Source: a virus. From it: a stretch of 23,305 nt of DNA. The DNA lies in the UHGV virus genome UHGV-0337120. The stretch is one strand, 5' to 3'. The number at the start of each line of letters is the position of its first letter. Within the stretch, counting starts at the first letter, position 1. Of the stretch, positions 5,252-17,690 are shown piece by piece. The notes under the pieces are model-generated. The model ran no database searches, was not told where the DNA came from, and saw nothing but the letters and a program-made list of their open reading frames with translations. The position numbers and the translations under genes were made by a program.

Positions 5252-6222
5252 GCAACCGGATTGAACCTTACCGCGTCCTGGAGATAATCAGGTGCAAAGT
5301 GCGCATAGGTCATTGTTTGCTGAATTGTGCTGTGCCCTAAAATACGCTGAAGGGTAATAATGTTCCCTCCATTTATCATGAAATGAGTTGCGAATGTGTG
5401 CCGTAAAACATGCACAGACTGACCGACTGGTAAATCAGGCCGCACAGTCCTTATTGCACTTCTGACTATCGCATAACTGGGGTTCATTAATCTTCCAGTC
5501 GCTTTGACTTTAATCAGAGATTCAAGATCTTTAGCTATAGGAATAACCCGCCGCGATCCATTCTTTGTCTCCATGAAAATAACCTTCCCACCAATTATGT
5601 GTTCACCTTTAATATTGGCAACTTCACCCCAGCGCCCGCCTGTAGCCAAGCTTAACAATACAGCCTTAAGATTATCGCCAGATAAAAGTGCGGTTAGCCT
5701 AGGAATATCATCATGTGCAAGATAAGCCATTTCCGGCTGATTAATTGTTAGCTTGCGTATCTCGTGAAACGGGTTATCACCCACAAACTCTTCAACATCA
5801 ATCAGCTTTTCAAAGAAACCGCTCATCATTGCACAATAACGATTTACCGTTGACTGCTTAATTCCGCGATTCATTAATTCAAGGCGATATCTGATAATAT
5901 TTTTTCGGGTTAAGTGGTCACTTCTGTTAATACCAAGCTCTTGCATATCACGAAGAACCGCTTCAATTCTGACCCGATTCATCGCGCCATAACGATGATT
6001 CTTACCGTGGTACACCCACCACAGTTCCAGAAGATCGCTTAACGCTTTACGTTCAATAGGTTTTTCGACCCAGTCCTTATCGTGATAATGCGTCAGAACA
6101 TGGCGTTCATACATCGCCGCTTCACCACGGGTAGGAAATCGCCGCCGAAATCTTCTTCCTTCAGATCCAGCAGGCCGCACGTCCACACAGTATTTGCCAT
6201 CAGCGAGCTTCTTAATCGACAT
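5227..6222 (-). CDS. int: Tyrosine integrase, P2 Int family
   Basis: N-terminus MSIKKLADGKYCVDVRPAG matches P2 Int MAIKKLDDGRYEVDIRP; C-terminal HVLRHTFATHFMINGGNIITLQRILGH...YAHFAPDYLQDA carries the catalytic R-H-R-Y region. Start set at the ATG giving MSIKK (6222), not the track's 6258. Confidence 0.92.
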   Translation of the reverse strand: MSIKKLADGKYCVDVRPAGSEGRRFRRRFPTRGEAAMYERHVLTHYHDKDWVEKPIERKALSDLLELWWVYHGKNHRYGAMNRVRIEAVLRDMQELGINRSDHLTRKNIIRYRLELMNRGIKQSTVNRYCAMMSGFFEKLIDVEEFVGDNPFHEIRKLTINQPEMAYLAHDDIPRLTALLSGDNLKAVLLSLATGGRWGEVANIKGEHIIGGKVIFMETKNGSRRVIPIAKDLESLIKVKATGRLMNPSYAIVRSAIRTVRPDLPVGQSVHVLRHTFATHFMINGGNIITLQRILGHSTIQQTMTYAHFAPDYLQDAVRFNPVAELSRFCP

Positions 6223-6288
6223 AAGGAAGCCCCCCAATGAAAACATCATCTTGATCACAATTTTGAGAAATAAAGGCCAGATGGACCG

Positions 6289-6582
6289 TTAACCAGTCTT
6301 CTTGCCGGAGTGGGGTGATTCCGATTCGCTTCGCCCAATGTGTGCGAGAGCCGGTACCACCTGCCCGACCTTTGGTTCGACCTCATCGAACAAAAACCAG
6401 TCGCGGTATTTAGAAAATCTCGGGTGCTTAAAAAGCTTGATAGTGATCTCAAGACCAGGAAGGTTACGACCATACTCATAACTGGTCAGAGCAGAGTAAG
6501 AAATCCCAATCATATCAGCGAACTCCCGTTGAGTGAGATCTTCAGATTTACGCATGACGCGAATTTTTTGAGGAATGTCCAT
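6289..6582 (-). CDS. C: Immunity repressor, P2 C-like
   Basis: 97 aa; MRKSE...PALAH...SPHSG.KTG aligns with P2 C from memory; AGGAG RBS; divergent from cox-like gene and upstream of int as in P2. Confidence 0.85.
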   Translation of the reverse strand: MDIPQKIRVMRKSEDLTQREFADMIGISYSALTSYEYGRNLPGLEITIKLFKHPRFSKYRDWFLFDEVEPKVGQVVPALAHIGRSESESPHSGKKTG

Positions 6583-6621
6583 TTGACAAACTCCTACATA
6601 TGTGTATTAATACCACATATG
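6583..6621. promoter_or_regulatory. Switch region: candidate early promoter (TTGACA-N17-ATTAAT) overlapped by an inverted repeat, candidate operator
   Basis: TTGACA at 6583-6588; CATATGTG (6597-6604) and CACATATG (6614-6621) form a perfect 8-bp inverted repeat around a TATTAATA-containing spacer. Confidence 0.4.
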
Positions 6622-6695
6622 AACATAAAAAGAAATGTTCTAAGTGGTTCCAACTAGTGCCAGATAGAAATAGCACCAATAACGGAGGATACCAG

Positions 6696-7121
6696 ATGCA
6701 AGAAGTCACTCAAAACGCGCCTGAATCGCCTGCCGAAACACAGTGCGATCAGTTGACAGATGCGCCAGAAACCGCACACCAAAAGACCGGGCGCAAAGCC
6801 CCTGAACGCCAAGAAATCAGGCTTTCACAAAACCCTTCTCATCTCCTGTCAAAAGAAGGGTTTGCGATGTATATCGGCAAGACCGTTAACGCCATCGTGA
6901 GCATGGCAAAAGCAGGGAAATTACCCGCTGTGTACATGGCGGACCCTCTCAAGCCTGGCGGAAACGCCGAACTTTACATCAACCGGAAAGCATGGGATGA
7001 AGCCTGCGATCGACTCACTGAAAACGCACCGCAAGAATGGCACGAATGGGAAAACCGACTTTTTTTATTTAAGCCAGCAGCTGGTTCACGGAATAAACGT
7101 ATCAGTAAAAAAGCAGCTTAA
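6696..7121 (+). CDS. cox: Cox-like excisionase / early repressor (HTH)
   Basis: Segment FAMYIGKTVNAIVSMAKAGKLPAVYMADP resembles P2 Cox FAKLIGKSTGAVRRMIDKGKLPVIDMTDP; GGAGGA RBS before ATG 6696. N-terminal 55 aa are low complexity, so true start is uncertain. Confidence 0.55.
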   Translation: MQEVTQNAPESPAETQCDQLTDAPETAHQKTGRKAPERQEIRLSQNPSHLLSKEGFAMYIGKTVNAIVSMAKAGKLPAVYMADPLKPGGNAELYINRKAWDEACDRLTENAPQEWHEWENRLFLFKPAAGSRNKRISKKAA

Positions 7122-7202
7122 TATCAAACACACAGCGAAATCCACAACAGGAGATTTCGCCGTAAATAATCTAATCGTTGGTGTTATGCGGGGGCGCAAC
7201 AA

Positions 7203-7640
7203 TCAACCAAGAAGACTTTTGAAAGCAAAGGATAACCCAGTAGTAAGAGCGGATGATGCGGTGCTTTTTATCGCGTCCATTGAGCCACTCTTGGCTGCAT
7301 CAACAAGCTTGTCGCCAAATGATTGTTTAAGTGACTCTGGATCAAGCTTAAGTAATTCAAGACCTTTGGCCGTGAGAACCGCATCAGAAAAGTAATGCGG
7401 AGGAGAAGATTTAGCGGATACATAACCAGCATCAACAAGCCATGCGATGGAGTCACGGCGAAGCTCAAGAGCTTCAACTAGTTGCCTCCTGGAGGATCGG
7501 TCTTCTTCAAAAGTCAGCTCTGAAACACCGGTTAAGGCACAAATATCAATAGTTACTTTGCGGGGAAAAGTTTCATAAAGAAACGCAAAAGTTTTACCAA
7601 CTGTTTCATTAAAAACATCAAGATTTGAAGGTGTTGACAT
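7203..7640 (-). CDS. Hypothetical protein, transcribed antisense to the early operon (cargo candidate)
   Basis: About 145-aa ORF filling the 500-bp gap between cox and the next plus-strand gene; GGAG RBS before ATG 7640; AT-richer than flanks; no motif recognised. Confidence 0.5.
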   Translation of the reverse strand: MSTPSNLDVFNETVGKTFAFLYETFPRKVTIDICALTGVSELTFEEDRSSRRQLVEALELRRDSIAWLVDAGYVSAKSSPPHYFSDAVLTAKGLELLKLDPESLKQSFGDKLVDAAKSGSMDAIKSTASSALTTGLSFAFKSLLG

Positions 7641-7833
7641 GACTGACTCCACTCAAACAAAAGACTTATACAGCGATTTACGATTCATCATCATACAACA
7701 GCAATCAGGCAGACTGGATCCAACACGTGCAAGCAAGGCCTGGAAAGAAGCACTTACCGATCAGGGGATCGATGTAATTAGCGAAGTCATGGCTGAAGTG
7801 ATTTTTAAGCTAACAAGAGACGAATCACTGTAA
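7639..7833 (+). CDS. Hypothetical small early protein
   Basis: 64 aa; GAAGGTG RBS 6 nt upstream; first gene of the packed plus-strand early operon. Confidence 0.4.
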   Translation: MTDSTQTKDLYSDLRFIIIQQQSGRLDPTRASKAWKEALTDQGIDVISEVMAEVIFKLTRDESL

Positions 7834-7858
7834 TCATCGCATAAGGACCGAGTGAAGA

Positions 7859-8197
7859 ATGAAGCAACAACGAAATGCACGCATCAATAACAACACCGAA
7901 CGCCACGTTGCACGCCAGCACTTCCGTAAAAATAGTGCGACCGTAACCACTGAAATCCATGTAACACCAGACGGTCACCCGGTAAAACAAACCGGCAAAC
8001 ACACCTGGGCGATTGGCGACACTGCCATCGTTATTCACAAAAGTTTTCGCAGTCCTGTTACTGGCAGATTTAATTTCACCCTGACTCGCGGGGATGATTA
8101 CTTCGGACAGGATTTCACATTTTTTGAAGCCTTAAGAACGGCAGACAGATTAATCAACGGCCTGTGTTTTCAATATCCGGGAAGTAAGTACCGATAA
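7859..8197 (+). CDS. Hypothetical early protein
   Basis: 112-aa ORF tightly packed in the early operon. Confidence 0.5.
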   Translation: MKQQRNARINNNTERHVARQHFRKNSATVTTEIHVTPDGHPVKQTGKHTWAIGDTAIVIHKSFRSPVTGRFNFTLTRGDDYFGQDFTFFEALRTADRLINGLCFQYPGSKYR

Positions 8198-8212
8198 ATA
8201 AAGGATTCAGTC

Positions 8213-8455
8213 ATGATCGAAGCCTACAAAATACTTATTAATAACGCGTTGCAGCGTTACCACTTTGAACTCGCAAACAGGGGCGTAACTAAGGATGAAA
8301 GCCTTCGTAACTCACTGCGCGGCGCAATTATGGGACTGTATAACTGCGCGCTGGGCAGCGATGACCGTGAAGCGCTGGAAGAATTAAAGTCGATTATGAC
8401 AGAACTGTTTGAAGGTGAAATTGTTGAGCCTTACTTCACAGGGGTGGCAGCATGA
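8213..8455 (+). CDS. Hypothetical early protein
   Basis: 80-aa ORF; stop overlaps the next start (ATGA). Confidence 0.5.
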   Translation: MIEAYKILINNALQRYHFELANRGVTKDESLRNSLRGAIMGLYNCALGSDDREALEELKSIMTELFEGEIVEPYFTGVAA

Positions 8456-8577
8456 TCATATTCCTTTCATGGCTAATTCTGATTATCTCCGTACTTATGG
8501 CAATCGGCATTATGCGAATTATCCACACACTGAAGGATATCGAATTATTCTTTACCGGCGATAAACGCCGTAAATAA
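8452..8577 (+). CDS. Small hydrophobic single-TM peptide (41 aa)
   Basis: MIIFLSWLILIISVLMAIGIMRIIHTLKDIELFFTGDKRRK; ATGA-coupled to upstream gene. Confidence 0.35.
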   Translation: MIIFLSWLILIISVLMAIGIMRIIHTLKDIELFFTGDKRRK

Positions 8578-8589
8578 AGCGAAAACGTT

Positions 8590-8685
8590 ATGAAGAATGT
8601 AAAAGCAATACTCACCATTGCCAGTGTGTGGCTGATATTTCAGGTGTGTGCGCTTATCTGGTTAGCCCTGAAGATCTGGGAATAA
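8590..8685 (+). CDS. Small hydrophobic single-TM peptide (31 aa)
   Basis: MKNVKAILTIASVWLIFQVCALIWLALKIWE; weak RBS. Confidence 0.3.
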   Translation: MKNVKAILTIASVWLIFQVCALIWLALKIWE

Positions 8686-8790
8686 CCTTAAGCTTCAAAT
8701 AAGAACGCAATAACACCAGAAAACATACGAACAATTAATTAAGGCATTCATGCCATCGGGTTCCCTTTGTCTTTTTTCAGGAGTCAACAA

Positions 8791-9024
8791 ATGAGAACAG
8801 CCGAATCACCCGGCAGAGAAATAGCCGCCAGACCAGCTAACCATCATGCACATATCAGCATGGCCGCAAGAAAAGCCGAGCGTGCGCATATCTGCGAATT
8901 GCTGCGTGACCTGGTTGACACAGCGAGAGAGAAGCACACCTCCCCGGAGGAAACCTGCTCATCCATTGAACGACTGATTGCAACGCTCACGAACAACGCC
9001 GAACAGAAGGAGTGCACACAGTGA
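8791..9024 (+). CDS. Hypothetical early protein
   Basis: 77 aa from ATG 8791 with CAGGAG RBS (track starts earlier at a non-ATG codon). Confidence 0.45.
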   Translation: MRTAESPGREIAARPANHHAHISMAARKAERAHICELLRDLVDTAREKHTSPEETCSSIERLIATLTNNAEQKECTQ

Positions 9025-9602
9025 ACCATCTCATGATCGACACCGAAACATTGGGTACCGGACCGGACGCAGTCATATTCGCGATTGGCGCGGTGTTTTT
9101 CGACCCGTTCACCGGAAAGCTGGGCAAACAGTTTGAGAAACTCATCGACCCGGTGGATTCAGAACGCAACGGTGGAACCGTCAATGCAGCCACCGCTGTA
9201 TGGTGGGCCGGACAATCCGTGGAGGCCAGATCCTGCCTGCGCAACGCAGATGGAACAGAGCTGGCAGCAGTGACCGAATTTCTGGCGTTCATTTCACGCA
9301 ATATGCATGACGAAAGCCCGGGCAATTCACTGAACATATGGTGTAAGGGCGCATCCTTCGATTTCCCGATCCTGAAATCCGCCATAACACGCACAGCCGG
9401 AGAAAAAAGCATCCCCTGGTGCTACTGGAACGAGCGCTGTATGCGCCCGCTTATCGCCATGGCTGAATCAACTGGATGGAAAATGCCAGGCAGATCAGGA
9501 AAAGAGGCCATTGCTCACACCGCGCTGGGCGACGCCATTTACCAGGCAAAGGTCGTGTCAGAAATCTGGCAGCGCTTCACAACACCATTCCTGAACATAT
9601 GA
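9012..9602 (+). CDS. DEDDh-family 3'-5' exonuclease (DnaQ-like)
   Basis: Exo I motif IDTETLG and Exo III motif HTALGDAIYQA read directly. True start probably GTG 9021 or ATG 9033. Confidence 0.7.
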   Translation: MHTVNHLMIDTETLGTGPDAVIFAIGAVFFDPFTGKLGKQFEKLIDPVDSERNGGTVNAATAVWWAGQSVEARSCLRNADGTELAAVTEFLAFISRNMHDESPGNSLNIWCKGASFDFPILKSAITRTAGEKSIPWCYWNERCMRPLIAMAESTGWKMPGRSGKEAIAHTALGDAIYQAKVVSEIWQRFTTPFLNI

Positions 9603-9611
9603 GGTGAAGCC

Positions 9612-9839
9612 ATGGTCGCCATCCTGAATGTGTGTTGCTGCCCCCCCCTGAACGTGGAAAGAAAAGCCCGCGCATCGCTGCGTTTATTCCGCGACGGCGT
9701 GCGGAATTTTTCACGCATAAAACCCCACGACTACCTGGTAATAAGAATCGGTTTCCGCTGGCGATTACTGAGCAAAAACAACGGGGCGTCATGGGATTTA
9801 TTAACGCACGAAACCTATAACAAAGAGGCCGCGTTATGA
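9612..9839 (+). CDS. Small basic Cys-rich ORF containing a C8 tract; stop overlaps dam start
   Basis: GAGGTGA RBS before ATG 9612; C8 homopolymer at 9641-9648 inside codons 10-13; TGA overlaps the dam ATG (TTATGAGC). Coding status uncertain. Confidence 0.3.
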   Translation: MVAILNVCCCPPLNVERKARASLRLFRDGVRNFSRIKPHDYLVIRIGFRWRLLSKNNGASWDLLTHETYNKEAAL

Positions 9840-10816
9840 GCAAAGAACTGTTATCCGGTACGCCACTGAAATGGGTGGGCGGAAAAAGCCGCATCATGAA
9901 CACACTGAAGGCGCACCTGCCAGAAGCCGACTGTCTGGTTGAGCCGTTCGTGGGCGGCGCATCGGTATTCATGAACACCAGTTACAAGCGTTACATCCTG
10001 GGTGATTCCAATGGTGCGCTGATTAATTTCTACCGGCAAGCCAGGGACAACACCGACAGCCTGATCGACGAGGCGAAAACCCTGTTCCTGAACCACAACA
10101 ACAGGGGTGACTATCTCATCATTCGCGAAACCTTTAACGCAGAGAATCATGCCTTCCTGAACAGCAGAACGGGAATAAGCGACCGCCGTGAACTGCGACT
10201 GGCCGCCATGTTTTTGTACCTGAACCGACACAGCTTTAACGGTTTGTTCCGCGTGAACGGAAAAGGCGATTTTAACGTGCCTTTCGGCTGCTACCGCAAG
10301 CCCTACTTCCCTGAGCGTGAAATCCGCGCATTTGCAGACAAGGCAAACAGCACCCGAACGCTGCTTATCCACGCAGATTTTAAGGATACGCTGAACTCTG
10401 CCAGTCACCTGTTCGGCATGGGCAACACGCTTTGCGTGTACTGCGATCCCCCTTACCTGCAATTCAGTGGCCGGGACAATTTTACCGCCTACGGAAAACC
10501 ATTCGATGAAGACGAGCACGTTCGTCTGAGGGCAGCGCTTGACCGCCTTTCACAGGAAACGGGCGGCATGACCAGCATCACCATCTCCAATTCCGACACA
10601 CCGGAAACCAGACGCATTTATCAGGGTTACCGGATGAACACCATCCTGGCACCACGAAGCGTTGGCGCAAGAACCCGGGAATCAGCACCGGAGGTTATCG
10701 CCACCCTGAGACAGTGCGACGCCTGCGGTCGCCATGGCGGTGGCTACTGCCCGGACTGCGGACCTGTAACGGAAGATGCAACTTACAGCGCGATGTTAAT
10801 CACCGCCAGTACGTAA
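9836..10816 (+). CDS. dam: DNA adenine methyltransferase (Dam family) with Cys-rich C-terminal extension
   Basis: LKWVGGK, CLVEPFVGGASVF (SAM binding), FLYLNR, NVPFG.YRKPYFPE and catalytic DPPY align with E. coli Dam from memory; C-terminus has CDACGRHGGGYCPDCG. Confidence 0.92.
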   Translation: MSKELLSGTPLKWVGGKSRIMNTLKAHLPEADCLVEPFVGGASVFMNTSYKRYILGDSNGALINFYRQARDNTDSLIDEAKTLFLNHNNRGDYLIIRETFNAENHAFLNSRTGISDRRELRLAAMFLYLNRHSFNGLFRVNGKGDFNVPFGCYRKPYFPEREIRAFADKANSTRTLLIHADFKDTLNSASHLFGMGNTLCVYCDPPYLQFSGRDNFTAYGKPFDEDEHVRLRAALDRLSQETGGMTSITISNSDTPETRRIYQGYRMNTILAPRSVGARTRESAPEVIATLRQCDACGRHGGGYCPDCGPVTEDATYSAMLITAST

Positions 10817-10850
10817 ACAACCAGTAAATCAGTAACACCGGAGTCAGGAA

Positions 10851-11087
10851 ATGAATAGCGAAAACAACAAAGAGCTTTTGCGGGAATTGCGTCTCATCGC
10901 CCGTGCACACGAGGAAGCAGCAAAAGTTGCCGCAGCTGCTGGAAGACCAGAGCTCGTTATCACTTCAGCAATCTCACTGAGGATCACCATGGAAGCAATT
11001 CAGGTAATTCAGGATCAGGAAAGTGAAATCGCCACCCTTAAAAAGCAGCTCAACGAGAAATCTGCCGGGCAAAGGAGTCAGCAATGA
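10851..11087 (+). CDS. Hypothetical small protein
   Basis: 78-aa ORF, helical/charged, stop overlaps next start. Confidence 0.4.
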   Translation: MNSENNKELLRELRLIARAHEEAAKVAAAAGRPELVITSAISLRITMEAIQVIQDQESEIATLKKQLNEKSAGQRSQQ

Positions 11088-11655: not shown

Positions 11656-12083
11656 CGCAAATGCTCGCTGGCAGACAGACCAACAGATGCGCTCGCTTTG
11701 TTTTTTGCGGGCCTGACAAACGCCTTCATGGATGCGCTGTTCGTTTCTTCCAGATACAGAATGCGCTCAATCAGGCGTTCAGTGCTCATGAAATCCCTTT
11801 GCGTAATCAGACGAAGGTAGCTCTGTTTCTGCCAGCACGCCAGTTCGGCGACGAATTCACACTTGCTGCAAAACCAGGAAAAAACAAAAAATGCCAGTCC
11901 GCAAAGACTCATCAGGACGGGGAAACCTACGAGAAGAAAGGACAATACCGCAGCAATCAGCGCCCCGGCGCGCAACATGGCAGCGGCTTTATTGCTGAGT
12001 ATGAAAACCATCTCTTCCAGCCAATAGCTGTACCACAGATGAAAAAAAATCTTCTTGTCTGCTTGCTCCATAGTAACAGGCAT
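11616..12083 (-). CDS. Two-TM membrane protein, antisense to early operon (cargo candidate)
   Basis: ATG 12083 with GGAGG RBS 7 nt upstream; hydrophobic helices AMLRAGALIAAVLSFLLVGFPVLM and LCGLAFFVFSWFC, then a soluble C-terminal domain; 3' end overlaps the convergent upstream gene by 40 nt. Confidence 0.55.
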   Translation of the reverse strand: MPVTMEQADKKIFFHLWYSYWLEEMVFILSNKAAAMLRAGALIAAVLSFLLVGFPVLMSLCGLAFFVFSWFCSKCEFVAELACWQKQSYLRLITQRDFMSTERLIERILYLEETNSASMKAFVRPAKNKASASVGLSASEHLRYSERLICWLCGV

Positions 12084-12469
12084 AAACAACCTCCATTGTT
12101 AATAAACGCCGCTATCCCTCGGCGCATTCCATTTTTGCGCCGCGATTATACATACTTCAGCACGCAACACAAAAACCGCTTGCCAGCGCTCGTCGTGTCA
12201 GGTTACATTTCCGCTGCACCTCATAAAACGGGTGCCGGGATTTCCACCCCGCTGACAAACGAAGCGCACAGCCGCGCCAGCGGTTTTTTTGTGCGTACTG
12301 TATCGCCACGTCTTTTTCGCGTCAGAATTATGGCGGGGCGTACAGGGCCGACTTCGGTCGGGCCGGTTTCTTCGTTTGCCGGTTGTGGAAACCCTGTACG
12401 TCTCGCCACCCTGAGTTTTCCACCTCTGGTTGGTGAGTTTTCAAAATTCACAAACGAAGAGGCCACACC

Positions 12470-12691
12470 ATGGCAAACCGCAAGCAACAGCGCGCCCGCG
12501 CTGAGCGTCTTCACATCCGCAGCGAAATCAACCGCAGACTCCATCGGGCTGCATCTGTCGCCTTTATCATGCAGTCAAACGTATTACACCGACTTAACGA
12601 CGGTATCGCTGCCGGGTATTACGCGGCAGTCTTCAGCTATCTCGCCGAAGATCTGGCAGAACTACAAAGCCTCATCAACCAGCACCGATAA
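12470..12691 (+). CDS. Hypothetical protein (P2 orf82/83-region equivalent)
   Basis: 73 aa; GAAGAGG RBS; follows a 370-bp ORF-free structured region. Confidence 0.45.
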   Translation: MANRKQQRARAERLHIRSEINRRLHRAASVAFIMQSNVLHRLNDGIAAGYYAAVFSYLAEDLAELQSLINQHR

Positions 12692-12759
12692 ACCACATCC
12701 GGAAGCTATCCCACACCTGCACGCGGGAGGCTTCCGCACATCTGTTACCGGAGGTTCTC

Positions 12760-13176
12760 ATGAAGAGCGTTAAGGGGCTTTCAGATATTCAGGACTTTTT
12801 TAACTGGATGTGGGCGGTGGATCCCCTGCTGGCTTCCCGCCTGAACAACTGGCACGACTATTACCGCCGCGCCTGTAAACAGGCTGCCCGCAGCGTCACC
12901 ACATACGGGGATTTCTCCTTCACCGTGGACGGTCGTTACCGCGTGGACGTGAAAGGTGATGGTGATGGACTGGGTTTATTTCACATCAACGGCACCGACA
13001 GTACCGCCATCAGCTGGTCGTCATCAGAGATGGCGCTGGTTCTGGAAATGACAACCCACAGCGTGGCCGTGAAAGGTATATACACCGCAGAAGGTTTTAT
13101 CGGCGAATACCAGCGCCTTCTCGTGCTGTACCGCGCGGCGTTTCAGGTGGCAACTGCCGGGGAGTACGACGCATGA
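12760..13176 (+). CDS. Hypothetical protein upstream of A
   Basis: 138 aa; GGAGG RBS; stop overlaps A start (ATGA). Confidence 0.5.
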   Translation: MKSVKGLSDIQDFFNWMWAVDPLLASRLNNWHDYYRRACKQAARSVTTYGDFSFTVDGRYRVDVKGDGDGLGLFHINGTDSTAISWSSSEMALVLEMTTHSVAVKGIYTAEGFIGEYQRLLVLYRAAFQVATAGEYDA

Positions 13177-17001: not shown

Positions 17002-17041
17002 GTTACCCTCAGCAGCGAGGGTAACACAGGATTTCTTTTTT
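17002..17041 (+). terminator. Terminator hairpin between convergent genes
   Basis: Perfect 9-bp stem GTTACCCTC-agcagc-GAGGGTAAC, T-run at 17034-17039. Confidence 0.55.
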
Positions 17042-17547
17042 CAGTCAAACCGAAATCGGCCGCTTGTCGCGTATGCATAGGTGACCACCGCACCCAGCGC
17101 ATTCACACGCTTCTTCACATAAATCACATTACCATCCTGATAGTCACCGTATGGGTAGCAAATAAAGATTGTTTTTTGCAAATCAGGATCATCAACAAAT
17201 GCCCCTGAACAACTTTTTGAGCTACCGCGACTGTACTCATAGGGAGCGGAATAGAATGAATCTTCACCCGGAAGAAAATATATCAGCGTAACCAGGAGGG
17301 TAAACAGAATCATCCAGGTAAGAAGGCACATACCCGAAAAAAACTTAAGATACGATGTAACCCCGGTAAATTTAGACCGATCAACCAGGTTCTTTTTCAA
17401 CAGGCACAGTGAGACAAAAACCGAAAGCACCACAGACACTGAAACAAGGCAGTTTGTCGTGAACGAATAAAGGTAGGTAATTCTGTAAACATCGTTTCGC
17501 CACCAAATAAAAAGAAAAATCCCCCCCCAAAACAGAAAGCGTGACAA
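17041..17547 (-). CDS. Multi-TM membrane protein with C-terminal soluble domain (cargo candidate in A-cos region)
   Basis: 168-aa ORF, AT-rich; three hydrophobic segments then ~75-aa Y/G/D-rich tail; only TTG/GTG starts available; G8 tract (plus C8 17521-17528) within first 10 codons. Confidence 0.45.
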   Translation of the reverse strand: MSRFLFWGGIFLFIWWRNDVYRITYLYSFTTNCLVSVSVVLSVFVSLCLLKKNLVDRSKFTGVTSYLKFFSGMCLLTWMILFTLLVTLIYFLPGEDSFYSAPYEYSRGSSKSCSGAFVDDPDLQKTIFICYPYGDYQDGNVIYVKKRVNALGAVVTYAYATSGRFRFD

Positions 17548-17660
17548 AAGTTAAATAAGGATATGAGTAATTTTTCACAGTTCTCACCCGGCAATACACC
17601 ACTGATTCAGACAGATGATTATCATCACCACCCACCCCCAAAAATCGCAAGATAAAAAAT

Positions 17661-17690
17661 GCACAAAAGCGCACGAAATTGCACAATTTT
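17661..17690. repeat. Three helically phased 10-bp GCAC repeats upstream of the membrane-protein gene
   Basis: gcacaaaagc / gcacgaaatt / gcacaatttt start at 17661, 17671, 17681, exactly 10 bp apart. Confidence 0.35.

What the first reader, a model, noticed from the sequence alone, without database searches (positions are those of the whole stretch)
9603..9839. C8 homopolymer inside a small ORF coupled to dam
A small ORF with a strong RBS contains a C8 run and ends by overlapping the dam start codon. By hand, C7 or C9 either terminates this ORF at once or shifts it into a frame ending at 9820, so tract length could alter coupling into the methyltransferase. dam keeps its own RBS, so any effect would be modulatory.
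Basis: partly seen in the sequence, partly recalled or inferred. Interest (0 to 1): 0.4.

Follow-up and report, generated by a model that had tools for sequence, protein, structure and literature searches.

The report
Hypermutable C8 run before phage dam
A run of eight C's near the start of a small, conserved toxin-like gene in an E. coli P2-type prophage really does change length (C6 to C12) in about one in five to ten natural copies, switching that small gene out of frame, but any effect on the neighbouring DNA methylase gene is unproven and probably small.

Summary
ORF 9612-9839 (75 aa, SD GAGGTG) holds C8 at 9641-9648 and ends in an ATGA overlap with dam (9836-10816). The ORF is a real gene: Pfam ParE_like (1e-17), and its AF2 model matches only RelE/ParE-type toxins at the top. 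It is 75 aa across Enterobacterales and always ends in an ATGA overlap with the next gene, usually a DNA methyltransferase.

The tract is specific to the E. coli lineage; other genera encode Ala-Pro there without a homopolymer. It is strongly length-polymorphic. About 20% of copies sampled without regard to length are not C8 (C7, C9, C10). Exact-protein look-ups add C6 and C12. Identical 1.26-kb flanking haplotypes carry C7, C8 and C9. Every off-length allele keeps an intact downstream frame and an intact overlap.

Best reading: a slipped-strand hot spot that switches the small protein off or truncates it. C7 stops at once. C9 reads a 69-aa alternative frame ending 15 nt before the dam ATG.

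dam has its own SD and no sequestering RNA structure, so modulation of dam is plausible but likely minor and is untested. Whether the switch is adaptive or mutation-selection balance is unresolved. It is a new member of a known kind, of moderate interest.

The parts
9012..9602 (+). Upstream gene: 3'-5' exonuclease (Rv2179c-like). It is the conserved neighbour that precedes the small ORF.
   Evidence: Pfam PF16473, E 7e-51. The same gene order is seen in the E. coli loci and in Klebsiella phages.
9601..9606 (+). Shine-Dalgarno GAGGTG of the small ORF, 5 nt before ATG 9612.
   Evidence: Read directly from the sequence. It is identical in all E. coli loci.
9612..9839 (+). Small ORF of 75 aa: a RelE/ParE-fold 'ParE family toxin-like protein' (WP_000225756.1).
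9641..9648 (+). C8 homopolymer, the hypermutable tract. It encodes the last base of Cys10, Pro11, Pro12 and the first base of Leu13, which is the loop between strand b1 and helix a1 of the model.
   Evidence: for the tract itself. Length variants C6-C12 are seen in relatives.
9628..9637 (+). Cluster of alternative start codons in the other two frames. ATG 9628 is in frame with the domain at C9, C6 or C12. GTG 9632 and TTG 9635 are in frame at C7 or C10. None has a recognisable SD.
   Evidence: Read from the sequence. PGAP uses exactly these starts in C9 and C7 genomes. The corresponding proteins are P0002, P0003, P0052, P0056 and P0057.
9649..9651 (+). TGA that comes into the ATG-9612 frame when one C is lost (C7 gives a 12-aa peptide).
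   Evidence: Read from the sequence. C7 alleles are L004, L008, L018-L023, L060, L091 and L093.
9654..9656 (+). In-frame GTG (Val15) just downstream of the tract. It is a possible re-initiation start and is used by PGAP where no upstream start is in frame.
   Evidence: The L007 annotation starts here. P0053 and P0058, 61-aa 'METKAR...' forms, also start here.
9818..9820 (+). TAA that ends the frame read after a +1 C insertion (69-aa product from ATG 9612). It lies 15 nt before the dam ATG.
   Evidence: One search lists ORF 9632..9820. The 69-aa product P0031 was found on 201 contigs.
9823..9828 (+). dam's own Shine-Dalgarno, AAGAGG, 7 nt before ATG 9836.
   Evidence: Read from the sequence.
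9836..10816 (+). Phage Dam (D12-class N6-adenine DNA methyltransferase, 326 aa). Its ATG overlaps the small ORF's TGA (ATGA, 9836-9839).
   Evidence: Pfam PF02086, E 7.5e-52. TIGR00571 dam, E 2e-66. PADLOC orphan MTase. The ATGA overlap is conserved in every orthologous locus examined.

Best explanation
The C8 run is a genuine, heritable slipped-strand-mispairing hot spot. It sits at codons 10-13 of a conserved 75-aa RelE/ParE-fold gene in the early operon of a P2-like (Peduoviridae) E. coli prophage.

The three common states differ as follows.
- C8: the protein is made from a strong SD, and its stop overlaps the dam start.
- C7 (-1): the strongly initiated frame stops immediately at TGA 9649-9651. 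The toxin-like domain can then be made only from SD-less starts (GTG 9632, TTG 9635 or GTG 9654), i.e. weakly or by re-initiation, and without the N-terminal beta-strand.
- C9 (+1): ribosomes from ATG 9612 read a 69-aa out-of-frame product ending 15 nt before the dam ATG. The domain is reachable only from the SD-less ATG 9628.

The shown effect is therefore an ON to OFF (or much reduced and truncated) switch of the small protein. The inferred effect on dam is at most a modest change in translational coupling, or in polarity in the C7 state, because dam has its own SD and no structure hides it.

Off-length alleles arise recurrently and do not accumulate further damage. This fits either reversible phase variation or mutation-selection balance in a weakly selected prophage gene. 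I regard mutation-selection balance as somewhat more likely.
For: Anatomy of the locus.

The gene is real and starts at ATG 9612:
- Pfam, PHROG and the family alignment support it, including the conserved N-terminus M..L.V.C.(A/P)P(L/V).
- The AF2 model places residues 4-7 as a beta-strand of the sheet.
- The fold is RelE/ParE.

The tract is polymorphic:
- Of 13 fetched E. coli complete-genome loci, 2 are C7 and 2 are C9, and every indel in the 280-nt alignment window around the small ORF is in the tract.
- In 19 metagenome and IMG/VR loci found with a pattern that does not include the tract, 15 are C8, 3 are C7 and 1 is C10.
- Exact-protein look-ups give the C8 form in 3693 blocks, the C7 form in 99, the C9 form in 73, plus the 69-aa C9 read-through product on 201, 39, 31 and 12 contigs. 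C6 and C12 forms are also present.

The events are recurrent:
- Identical 1260-nt flanking haplotypes carry C7, C8 and C9, giving at least 4-5 independent C7 and at least 7 independent C9 origins.

The variants are heritable rather than random error:
- One C7 context has 15 further similar places.
- L018 and L023 share a private haplotype.
- Most carriers are draft assemblies of short-read style.

The off alleles are otherwise undamaged:
- Every one of the off-length alleles examined (about 30) keeps the 63-codon domain frame and the ATGA overlap, and dam is full-length (314-326 aa) wherever the locus reaches its end, except in L061.

dam can initiate independently:
- It has its own SD.
- The region around its start has no excess RNA structure, z -0.06.

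Background: indel rate rises exponentially with run length in E. coli, and 8-bp G:C runs are outliers there (PMC8510543).
Against: - No read-level data were available. Within-culture switching and reversibility are not shown.
- A minority of the variants could be homopolymer errors in long-read assemblies, for example NCTC9112. STEC17-183 shows indels elsewhere too.
- The tract is absent outside the E. coli lineage and is interrupted (CCCCACCC, CCCCAC) in some E. coli sublineages. This argues against long-term selection for mutability.
- The gene lies in the repressor-controlled early operon, with no promoter-like site nearby beyond chance. It may therefore be silent in lysogens, leaving little for phase variation to act on.
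- No function of the small protein is known, and no effect on dam has been measured.
Confidence: 0.7

Rival explanations
1. Adaptive contingency locus. The tract is maintained because stochastic, reversible ON/OFF switching of the RelE/ParE-like protein benefits the phage or its lysogen. Through coupling or polarity it may also switch phage Dam, for example to hedge between hosts with different restriction or abortive-infection systems.
For: - The tract sits at the 5' end of the ORF, as in classical contingency genes.
- Lengths C6-C12 are found on identical haplotypes.
- Off alleles never carry secondary lesions.
- C8 requires the rare CCC-CCC codon pair; P=0.013 given the peptide.
- Start codons exist in both other frames just upstream of the tract.
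- The frame read at C9 stays open almost to dam, which only 2.6% of synonymous recodings would give.
- A second G/C run near the 5' end of another gene in the same prophage also varies.
Against: - The tract is not conserved in any other genus and is interrupted in some E. coli sublineages.
- About 80-90% of copies are C8, which fits simple purifying selection against frameshifts.
- The expected C8 indel rate in E. coli already explains recurrent variants (PMC8510543).
- The alternative starts have no SD.
- The open-frame statistic is weak, and Yokenella shows a similar open frame without a tract.
- No expression in lysogens is demonstrated.
Confidence: 0.25
2. Sequencing or assembly artefact. 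The C7, C9 and other alleles are homopolymer miscalls and the true tract is always C8.
For: - Some variant genomes are long-read assemblies, for example NCTC9112.
- STEC17-183 has extra indels elsewhere.
- Independent occurrence on identical haplotypes is also what random error would produce.
Against: - Variants occur in SPAdes-style metagenome contigs and in many draft isolate assemblies, and in Logan and ENA as well as NCBI.
- One C7 context recurs in 16 similar places, and a private haplotype is shared by L018 and L023.
- C6, C10 and C12 alleles are not typical one-base miscalls.
- The neighbouring C7/G7 tract at 17521 is almost invariant in the same data: 999 and 875 contigs against 2.
Confidence: 0.04
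3. Recoding signal. The C run serves as a site of programmed ribosomal frameshifting or transcriptional slippage, so that one template yields products in two frames (the 75-aa protein and the 69-aa alternative-frame protein).
For: - The alternative frame is open for 62 codons and was even annotated as a gene in strain ED1a (ECED1_0913, P0033).
- C-rich runs read by tRNA-Pro are shift-prone (my own knowledge).
Against: - There is no stimulatory structure: the fold around the tract gives z +1.15.
- There is no Rfam match.
- The alternative-frame product has no family match beyond close E. coli copies (cluster 2).
- Orthologues lack both the run and the open frame.
- Genomic length variation by itself explains the observed products.
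Confidence: 0.04

Closest known systems
Homopolymeric-tract contingency loci (slipped-strand mispairing) of Neisseria, Haemophilus, Campylobacter and Bordetella, e.g. the C-run in bvgS
   Same: A G/C mononucleotide run sits inside the 5' part of an ORF. One-base gains and losses shift the frame. Several tract lengths coexist among otherwise identical genomes.
   Different: The host is MMR-proficient E. coli, where such loci are rare. The run is short (8). It lies in a prophage early-operon gene of unknown function. Reversibility, switching rate and phenotype are not shown. The tract is young and lineage-specific.
neuO of prophage CUS-3 in E. coli K1 (phase-variable O-acetyltransferase; PMC3046976, PMC13001214)
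   Same: A simple-sequence repeat in the 5' coding region of a prophage gene in E. coli gives length-dependent ON/OFF expression.
   Different: neuO uses heptanucleotide repeats. It is a lysogenic-conversion gene expressed in the lysogen and has a demonstrated phenotype. Here the repeat is a homopolymer in an early lytic-operon gene with no known phenotype.
Phasevarions (phase-variable Type III mod / Type I hsd methyltransferases; reviewed in PMC13076061)
   Same: A hypermutable repeat is physically linked to a DNA methyltransferase, so methylation could in principle become stochastic.
   Different: In phasevarions the repeat is inside the methyltransferase or specificity gene and switches it fully ON or OFF. 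Here dam itself has no repeat, has its own RBS, and is intact in nearly all alleles where it could be read to its end. Any effect would be indirect and partial.
RelE/ParE superfamily type II toxins (RelE, YoeB, YafQ, HigB, ParE; e.g. PaaA2-ParE2 of an E. coli O157 prophage, PDB 5czf)
   Different: The protein is only 75 aa. No adjacent antitoxin gene is present; the neighbours are an exonuclease and Dam. It is instead consistently coupled to a downstream methyltransferase or another replication-module gene. Toxicity is untested.
Translationally coupled gene pairs with ATGA stop-start overlap
   Same: A 4-nt overlap is conserved in every orthologous locus, from Pantoea to Klebsiella.
   Different: The downstream gene has a good SD and no occluding structure. 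Dependence on upstream translation is therefore not implied by the sequence.

Membership tests
Simple-sequence contingency locus (slipped-strand phase variation) | Simple-sequence repeat within the coding region or promoter of the controlled gene | tested here: met
   C8 at 9641-9648, codons 10-13 of ORF 9612-9839.
Simple-sequence contingency locus (slipped-strand phase variation) | Repeat number differs among closely related or otherwise identical genomes | tested here: met
   C7, C8 and C9 occur on identical 1260-nt flanks. About 20% of copies in unselected samples are not C8. The range is C6-C12.
Simple-sequence contingency locus (slipped-strand phase variation) | A change in repeat number switches the reading frame or expression of the gene | tested here: met
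   From the sequence, C7 gives a stop after 12 codons and C9 gives a 69-aa out-of-frame product. Protein output was not measured.
Simple-sequence contingency locus (slipped-strand phase variation) | High-frequency, reversible switching within a clonal population | not testable with these tools
   This needs read-level or colony-level data. The only indirect hint is that off alleles carry no secondary lesions.
Simple-sequence contingency locus (slipped-strand phase variation) | Repeat maintained by selection (conserved across lineages despite synonymous alternatives) | tested here: inconclusive
   The tract is retained in E. coli sublineages 5-8% divergent (L007-L009). It is interrupted in L010 and L011 and absent in all other genera. 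The codon choice is improbable, P=0.013.
RelE/ParE superfamily toxin (Pfam PF24732 ParE_like) | Sequence match to the family model above its curated threshold | tested here: met
   64.3 bits against a cut-off of 24.4, E 1.1e-17.
RelE/ParE superfamily toxin (Pfam PF24732 ParE_like) | RelE/ParE fold (helix or helices packed on an antiparallel sheet) | tested here: met
RelE/ParE superfamily toxin (Pfam PF24732 ParE_like) | Adjacent cognate antitoxin gene forming a two-gene module | tested here: not met
   The neighbours are a 3'-5' exonuclease and Dam. The same or similar neighbours are found in other genera. In some loci a small unknown ORF follows, which is not excluded as an antitoxin.
RelE/ParE superfamily toxin (Pfam PF24732 ParE_like) | Toxic activity (mRNA cleavage or gyrase poisoning) | not testable with these tools
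Phasevarion (phase-variable DNA methyltransferase) | Hypervariable repeat inside the methyltransferase or specificity gene | tested here: not met
   dam 9836-10816 contains no homopolymer of 7 or more. The tract lies in the upstream ORF.
Phasevarion (phase-variable DNA methyltransferase) | Methyltransferase activity switches ON/OFF with repeat length | not testable with these tools
   This needs methylome or reporter data. The sequence predicts independent initiation, with an own SD and no occluding structure.
Translationally coupled gene pair | Stop-start overlap conserved among orthologous loci | tested here: met
   ATGA is present in the window, in Salmonella and Klebsiella phages and in the 11 GTDB loci long enough to be analysed, of 13 found.
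Translationally coupled gene pair | Downstream RBS unavailable without upstream translation (sequestering structure or no SD) | tested here: not met
   AAGAGG lies 7 nt upstream of the dam ATG. The MFE of 9760-9880 does not differ from shuffles, z -0.06.
Programmed frameshift / transcriptional slippage site | Conserved slippery run with a conserved second-frame product or stimulator | tested here: not met
   The run and the open second frame are absent in orthologues. There is no structure and no Rfam hit.

The most novel reading that the evidence does not exclude
A temperate coliphage carries its own contingency switch. Slippage of the C run stochastically turns a solitary RelE/ParE-fold effector on and off. 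Through loss of ribosome traffic and polarity in the C7 state it also tunes the phage Dam. Each burst or lysogen population would then contain sub-populations that differ in host take-over and in DNA-methylation protection. This would be a phage-borne, indirectly wired 'phasevarion' in E. coli, possibly paired with a second switch in the membrane-protein moron at 17521-17528.
Probability: 0.12. Interest if true: 0.7.

Novelty: new member of a known kind. Interest (0 to 1): 0.42.

Why it matters
E. coli and its phages are not thought of as users of homopolymer contingency loci. Here, thousands of public genomes already show a tract that toggles a conserved, uncharacterised RelE/ParE-fold gene which is wired stop-to-start to phage methyltransferases across Enterobacterales.

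If the switch has a phenotype, it would be a simple, testable example of bet-hedging encoded by a temperate phage. It would also give a handle on what this widespread 75-aa protein does next to Dam.

If it has no phenotype, it is still useful. It is a documented annotation trap: PGAP and Prodigal call five or more different 'proteins' from one gene. It is also a natural reporter of C8 instability in wild E. coli.

Tried and rejected
- Megablast of the region against the phage collection found nothing. Only protein-level relatives exist there.
- NCBIfam and PADLOC have no model for the small protein.
- RNA folding around the dam start and around the tract gave z -0.06 and +1.15. I therefore dropped the ideas of a structure-gated coupling and of a frameshift stimulator.
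- The promoter and terminator scan of 6200-11000 gave no excess over shuffles and nothing next to the ORF. An internal promoter that would express the pair in lysogens is therefore unsupported.
- Repeats in 9400-10000 are only short chance matches.
- Rfam has no hit at the locus.
- Literature searches for PF24732 and for homopolymer control of phage dam found no precedent. PMC6286511 turned out to concern host phosphomannomutase genes.
- The open alternative frame, with only 2.6% of synonymous recodings equally open, was considered as evidence of design. I judged it too weak, because the three E. coli sublineages are not independent and Yokenella is similar without a tract.
- The scan of genome contigs returned only 13 loci (one genome per species), so it could not be used for population frequencies.

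Full report
**1. What is in the sequence**

The window is a P2-like (Peduoviridae) prophage. It carries an integrase, an HTH repressor, Cox, DUF4761, DUF4754, the gpA replication protein, SSB, portal and terminase.

Inside the rightward early operon lie three adjacent genes:
- a 3'-5' exonuclease (9012-9602)
- a 75-aa ORF (9612-9839)
- a D12-class Dam methyltransferase (9836-10816)

The small ORF has a good SD, GAGGTG at 9601-9606. It contains C8 at 9641-9648 (codons Cys10-Pro11-Pro12-Leu13). Its TGA overlaps the dam ATG, giving ATGA.

- Losing one C brings TGA 9649-9651 into frame, giving a 12-aa peptide.
- Gaining one C reads the frame of ORF 9632-9820, giving 69 aa that end at TAA 9818-9820, 15 nt before the dam ATG.
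- dam has its own SD, AAGAGG at 9823-9828.

A C8 run is not improbable by base composition alone. The window has two against 0.57 expected, and 11 of 100 shuffles reach two. Given the peptide C-P-P-L and this phage's codon usage, however, it is expected only 1.3% of the time.

**2. The small ORF is a real, conserved gene**

- It matches Pfam PF24732 'ParE-like toxin domain' (E 1.1e-17, residues 14-71).
- It matches phrog_1525 over residues 4-73.
- RefSeq annotates it as 'ParE family toxin-like protein' WP_000225756.1.

Homologues from Klebsiella, Enterobacter, Citrobacter, Salmonella, Pantoea and others are almost all exactly 75 aa. They share the N-terminal pattern M..L.V.C.AP(L/V) and a very conserved C-terminal two-thirds. 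The ATG 9612 start is therefore the ancestral one.

No antitoxin-like partner is adjacent. Instead, in every orthologous locus the ORF ends in an ATGA overlap with the next gene. Of the ten downstream ORFs scanned from the GTDB loci, five are a Dam, one is a Toprim primase and four are small unknowns. The next gene is also Dam in Klebsiella phage ST16-OXA48phi5.4, and a cytosine methyltransferase in Salmonella phage SW3.

**3. The tract is lineage-specific**

No orthologue outside the E. coli clade has a homopolymer at this position. They encode Ala-Pro with GCGCCG or similar.

Within E. coli, sublineages 5-8% divergent still have the run (L007-L009). Two more divergent ones have CCCCACCC (L010, L011), and one protein variant implies CCCCAC (P0064).

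**4. The tract is strongly length-polymorphic**

- *Complete genomes.* 27 E. coli complete genomes carry the region. Among the 13 fetched, two are C7 (MSB1_4I, JNEC-KY203) and two are C9 (NCTC9112, LZSFT34). All indels in the 280-nt alignment are in the tract.
- *Unselected sample.* A 19-nt pattern upstream of the tract, blind to tract length, returned 19 true loci from metagenome and IMG/VR contigs. Fifteen are C8, three are C7 and one is C10. Together with the complete genomes, about 20% of uninterrupted tracts are not C8.
- *Exact-protein look-ups.* The C8 protein is in 3693 blocks. The C7 product called from GTG 9632 is in 99. The C9 product called from ATG 9628 is in 73. The C9 read-through product from ATG 9612 is on 201, 39, 31 and 12 contigs. 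Products that can only come from C6 and C12 also exist.
- *Recurrence.* Identical 1260-nt flanking haplotypes carry C7, C8 and C9. Examples are L004/L032/L036, L021/L025/L012, L005/L013, L030/L041 and L033/L035 (ED1a). This implies at least 4-5 independent C7 and at least 7 independent C9 events in a modest sample.
- *No secondary damage.* Every off-length allele retains the complete 63-codon domain frame and the ATGA overlap. dam is full-length wherever the locus reaches its end, except in L061.

**5. Artefact or real?**

Some variant genomes are long-read assemblies, and one (STEC17-183) has other indels. Several points argue against error as the general explanation:
- Variants appear in SPAdes-style metagenome contigs and many draft isolate assemblies, and in the Logan and ENA sets.
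- One C7 context recurs in 16 similar places, and L018 and L023 share a private haplotype.
- C6, C10 and C12 are not typical single-base miscalls.
- The nearby C7 run at 17521 is nearly invariant in the same kind of data.

I could not inspect reads, so within-culture heterogeneity and reversibility remain untested.

**6. Mechanism**

*Shown by sequence.* Tract length decides whether the strongly initiated frame yields the 75-aa protein (C8), a 12-aa peptide (C7) or a 69-aa unrelated product (C9).

Start codons exist in the two other frames immediately upstream: ATG 9628, GTG 9632 and TTG 9635. GTG 9654 lies just downstream. Annotation pipelines use them. None has an SD, and the resulting proteins lack strand b1. 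I infer that these states are OFF or strongly reduced.

*For dam.*
- The overlap is conserved, so some coupling is likely ancestral.
- dam has a good SD, and the RNA around it is no more structured than shuffles (z -0.06).
- In C9, ribosome traffic still reaches to within 15 nt of the dam ATG.
- Only C7 leaves about 185 nt untranslated, where loss of coupling or Rho polarity could lower dam.

**7. Adaptive switch or hot spot?**

In E. coli, indel rates rise exponentially with run length, and 8-bp G:C runs are outliers (PMC8510543). Recurrent C7 and C9 alleles are therefore expected from mutation alone.

C8 predominates in every sublineage, and off alleles are otherwise undamaged. This shows selection for the in-frame state together with rapid turnover of variants. 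It fits mutation-selection balance in a gene that is probably expressed only during lytic growth. No promoter-like signal lies nearby. It fits reversible phase variation equally well.

Hints of design are individually weak:
- rare CCC-CCC codons
- alternative starts in both other frames
- a C9 frame open almost to dam, which only 2.6% of synonymous recodings give
- a second varying G/C run in the same prophage

Absence of the tract in other genera and its interruption in some E. coli lineages argue against long-term maintenance.

My weights are about 0.7 that this is a real hypermutable switch of the small protein with little effect on dam. Within that, I put about one quarter on an adaptive contingency role.

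**8. Comparison with what is known**

It works like a homopolymeric contingency locus. Its closest E. coli precedent is the repeat-controlled prophage gene neuO of CUS-3 (PMC3046976).

It is not a phasevarion in the defined sense, because the repeat is not in the methyltransferase (review PMC13076061).

The protein belongs to the RelE/ParE fold and the Pfam family. It fails the two-gene toxin-antitoxin criterion.

I found no report of a homopolymer upstream of a phage dam, nor any on PF24732.

**Verdict.** This is a new member of a known kind, of moderate interest. It is cheap to test, and the natural C7, C8 and C9 alleles are already available.

Noticed in passing
window 17521-17528 (+); the gene is on the minus strand, 17041-17686: A second C8 run (G8 on the coding strand) sits at about codon 18-20 of a minus-strand accessory gene between ssb and portal. 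Twenty-one of 22 full-length E. coli complete-genome matches are 1 nt shorter than the query. Of the three fetched, L044 and L046 have C7, giving an intact 178-aa or 235-aa 'transmembrane protein' (WP_000801013.1). That form is on 999 and 875 contigs. The window has C8, which splits the gene in two, and the window's 168-aa form is on only 2 contigs. STEC17-183 has C9. The window therefore carries a rare frameshift allele, or a sequencing error, at a second G/C run. The protein has no Pfam or PADLOC match.
   Followed up: partly
window 12216-12290 and 12326-12413 (+): Rfam finds isrK (64 bits) and C4 antisense RNA (82 bits). These are the P1/P7-type immunity and antirepressor-control RNAs. They lie inside the 370-aa ORF 11661-12773, which has no Pfam match. 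That long ORF may be mis-called, or it may contain an icd/ant-like module.
   Followed up: no
window 9632-9820 (+), alternative frame of the small ORF: This 62-codon overlapping frame was annotated as a gene in E. coli ED1a (ECED1_0913, CAR07115.1) instead of the ParE-like ORF. It is open in all E. coli sublineages, whereas only 2.6% of synonymous recodings keep it open and most other genera have stops there.
   Followed up: partly
L014 (Salmonella phage SW3) 518-2648; L015; L016; L047-L055: The 75-aa RelE/ParE-fold gene is stop-start overlapped (ATGA) with the next gene in every genus examined. That gene is usually Dam. In SW3 the small gene sits between a Dam and a cytosine methyltransferase. 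The consistent association with methyltransferases, with no antitoxin, is unexplained.
   Followed up: partly
window 10709-10789 (Dam residues 292-318): The Dam protein has a C-terminal Cys-rich extension (CDACGRHGGGYCPDCG). It matches a segment of exodeoxyribonuclease VIII / phage exonuclease models rather than methyltransferase models (NF007259 positions 526-552; phrog_20376). It looks like a shared zinc-ribbon-like module.
   Followed up: no
L006 / L045 (E. coli STEC17-183, NZ_CP075652.1): This assembly has a 1-nt deletion in the exonuclease gene and C9 at the second tract, with no gene annotated there. It may be indel-prone and should not be counted as evidence for biological tract variation.
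   Followed up: no
L061 (metagenome contig OAUP01000013.1): The only C10 allele found also has a dam ORF of 262 aa instead of 314-326 aa. It is the single case where an off-length tract coincides with a shortened dam.
   Followed up: no
protein cluster of P0001: In the 90%-identity protein collection the 75-aa ParE-like protein shares one cluster (614 members) with the unrelated 193-aa exonuclease encoded just upstream. This suggests that bridging fusion or read-through products exist in some assemblies, or that it is a clustering artefact.
   Followed up: no
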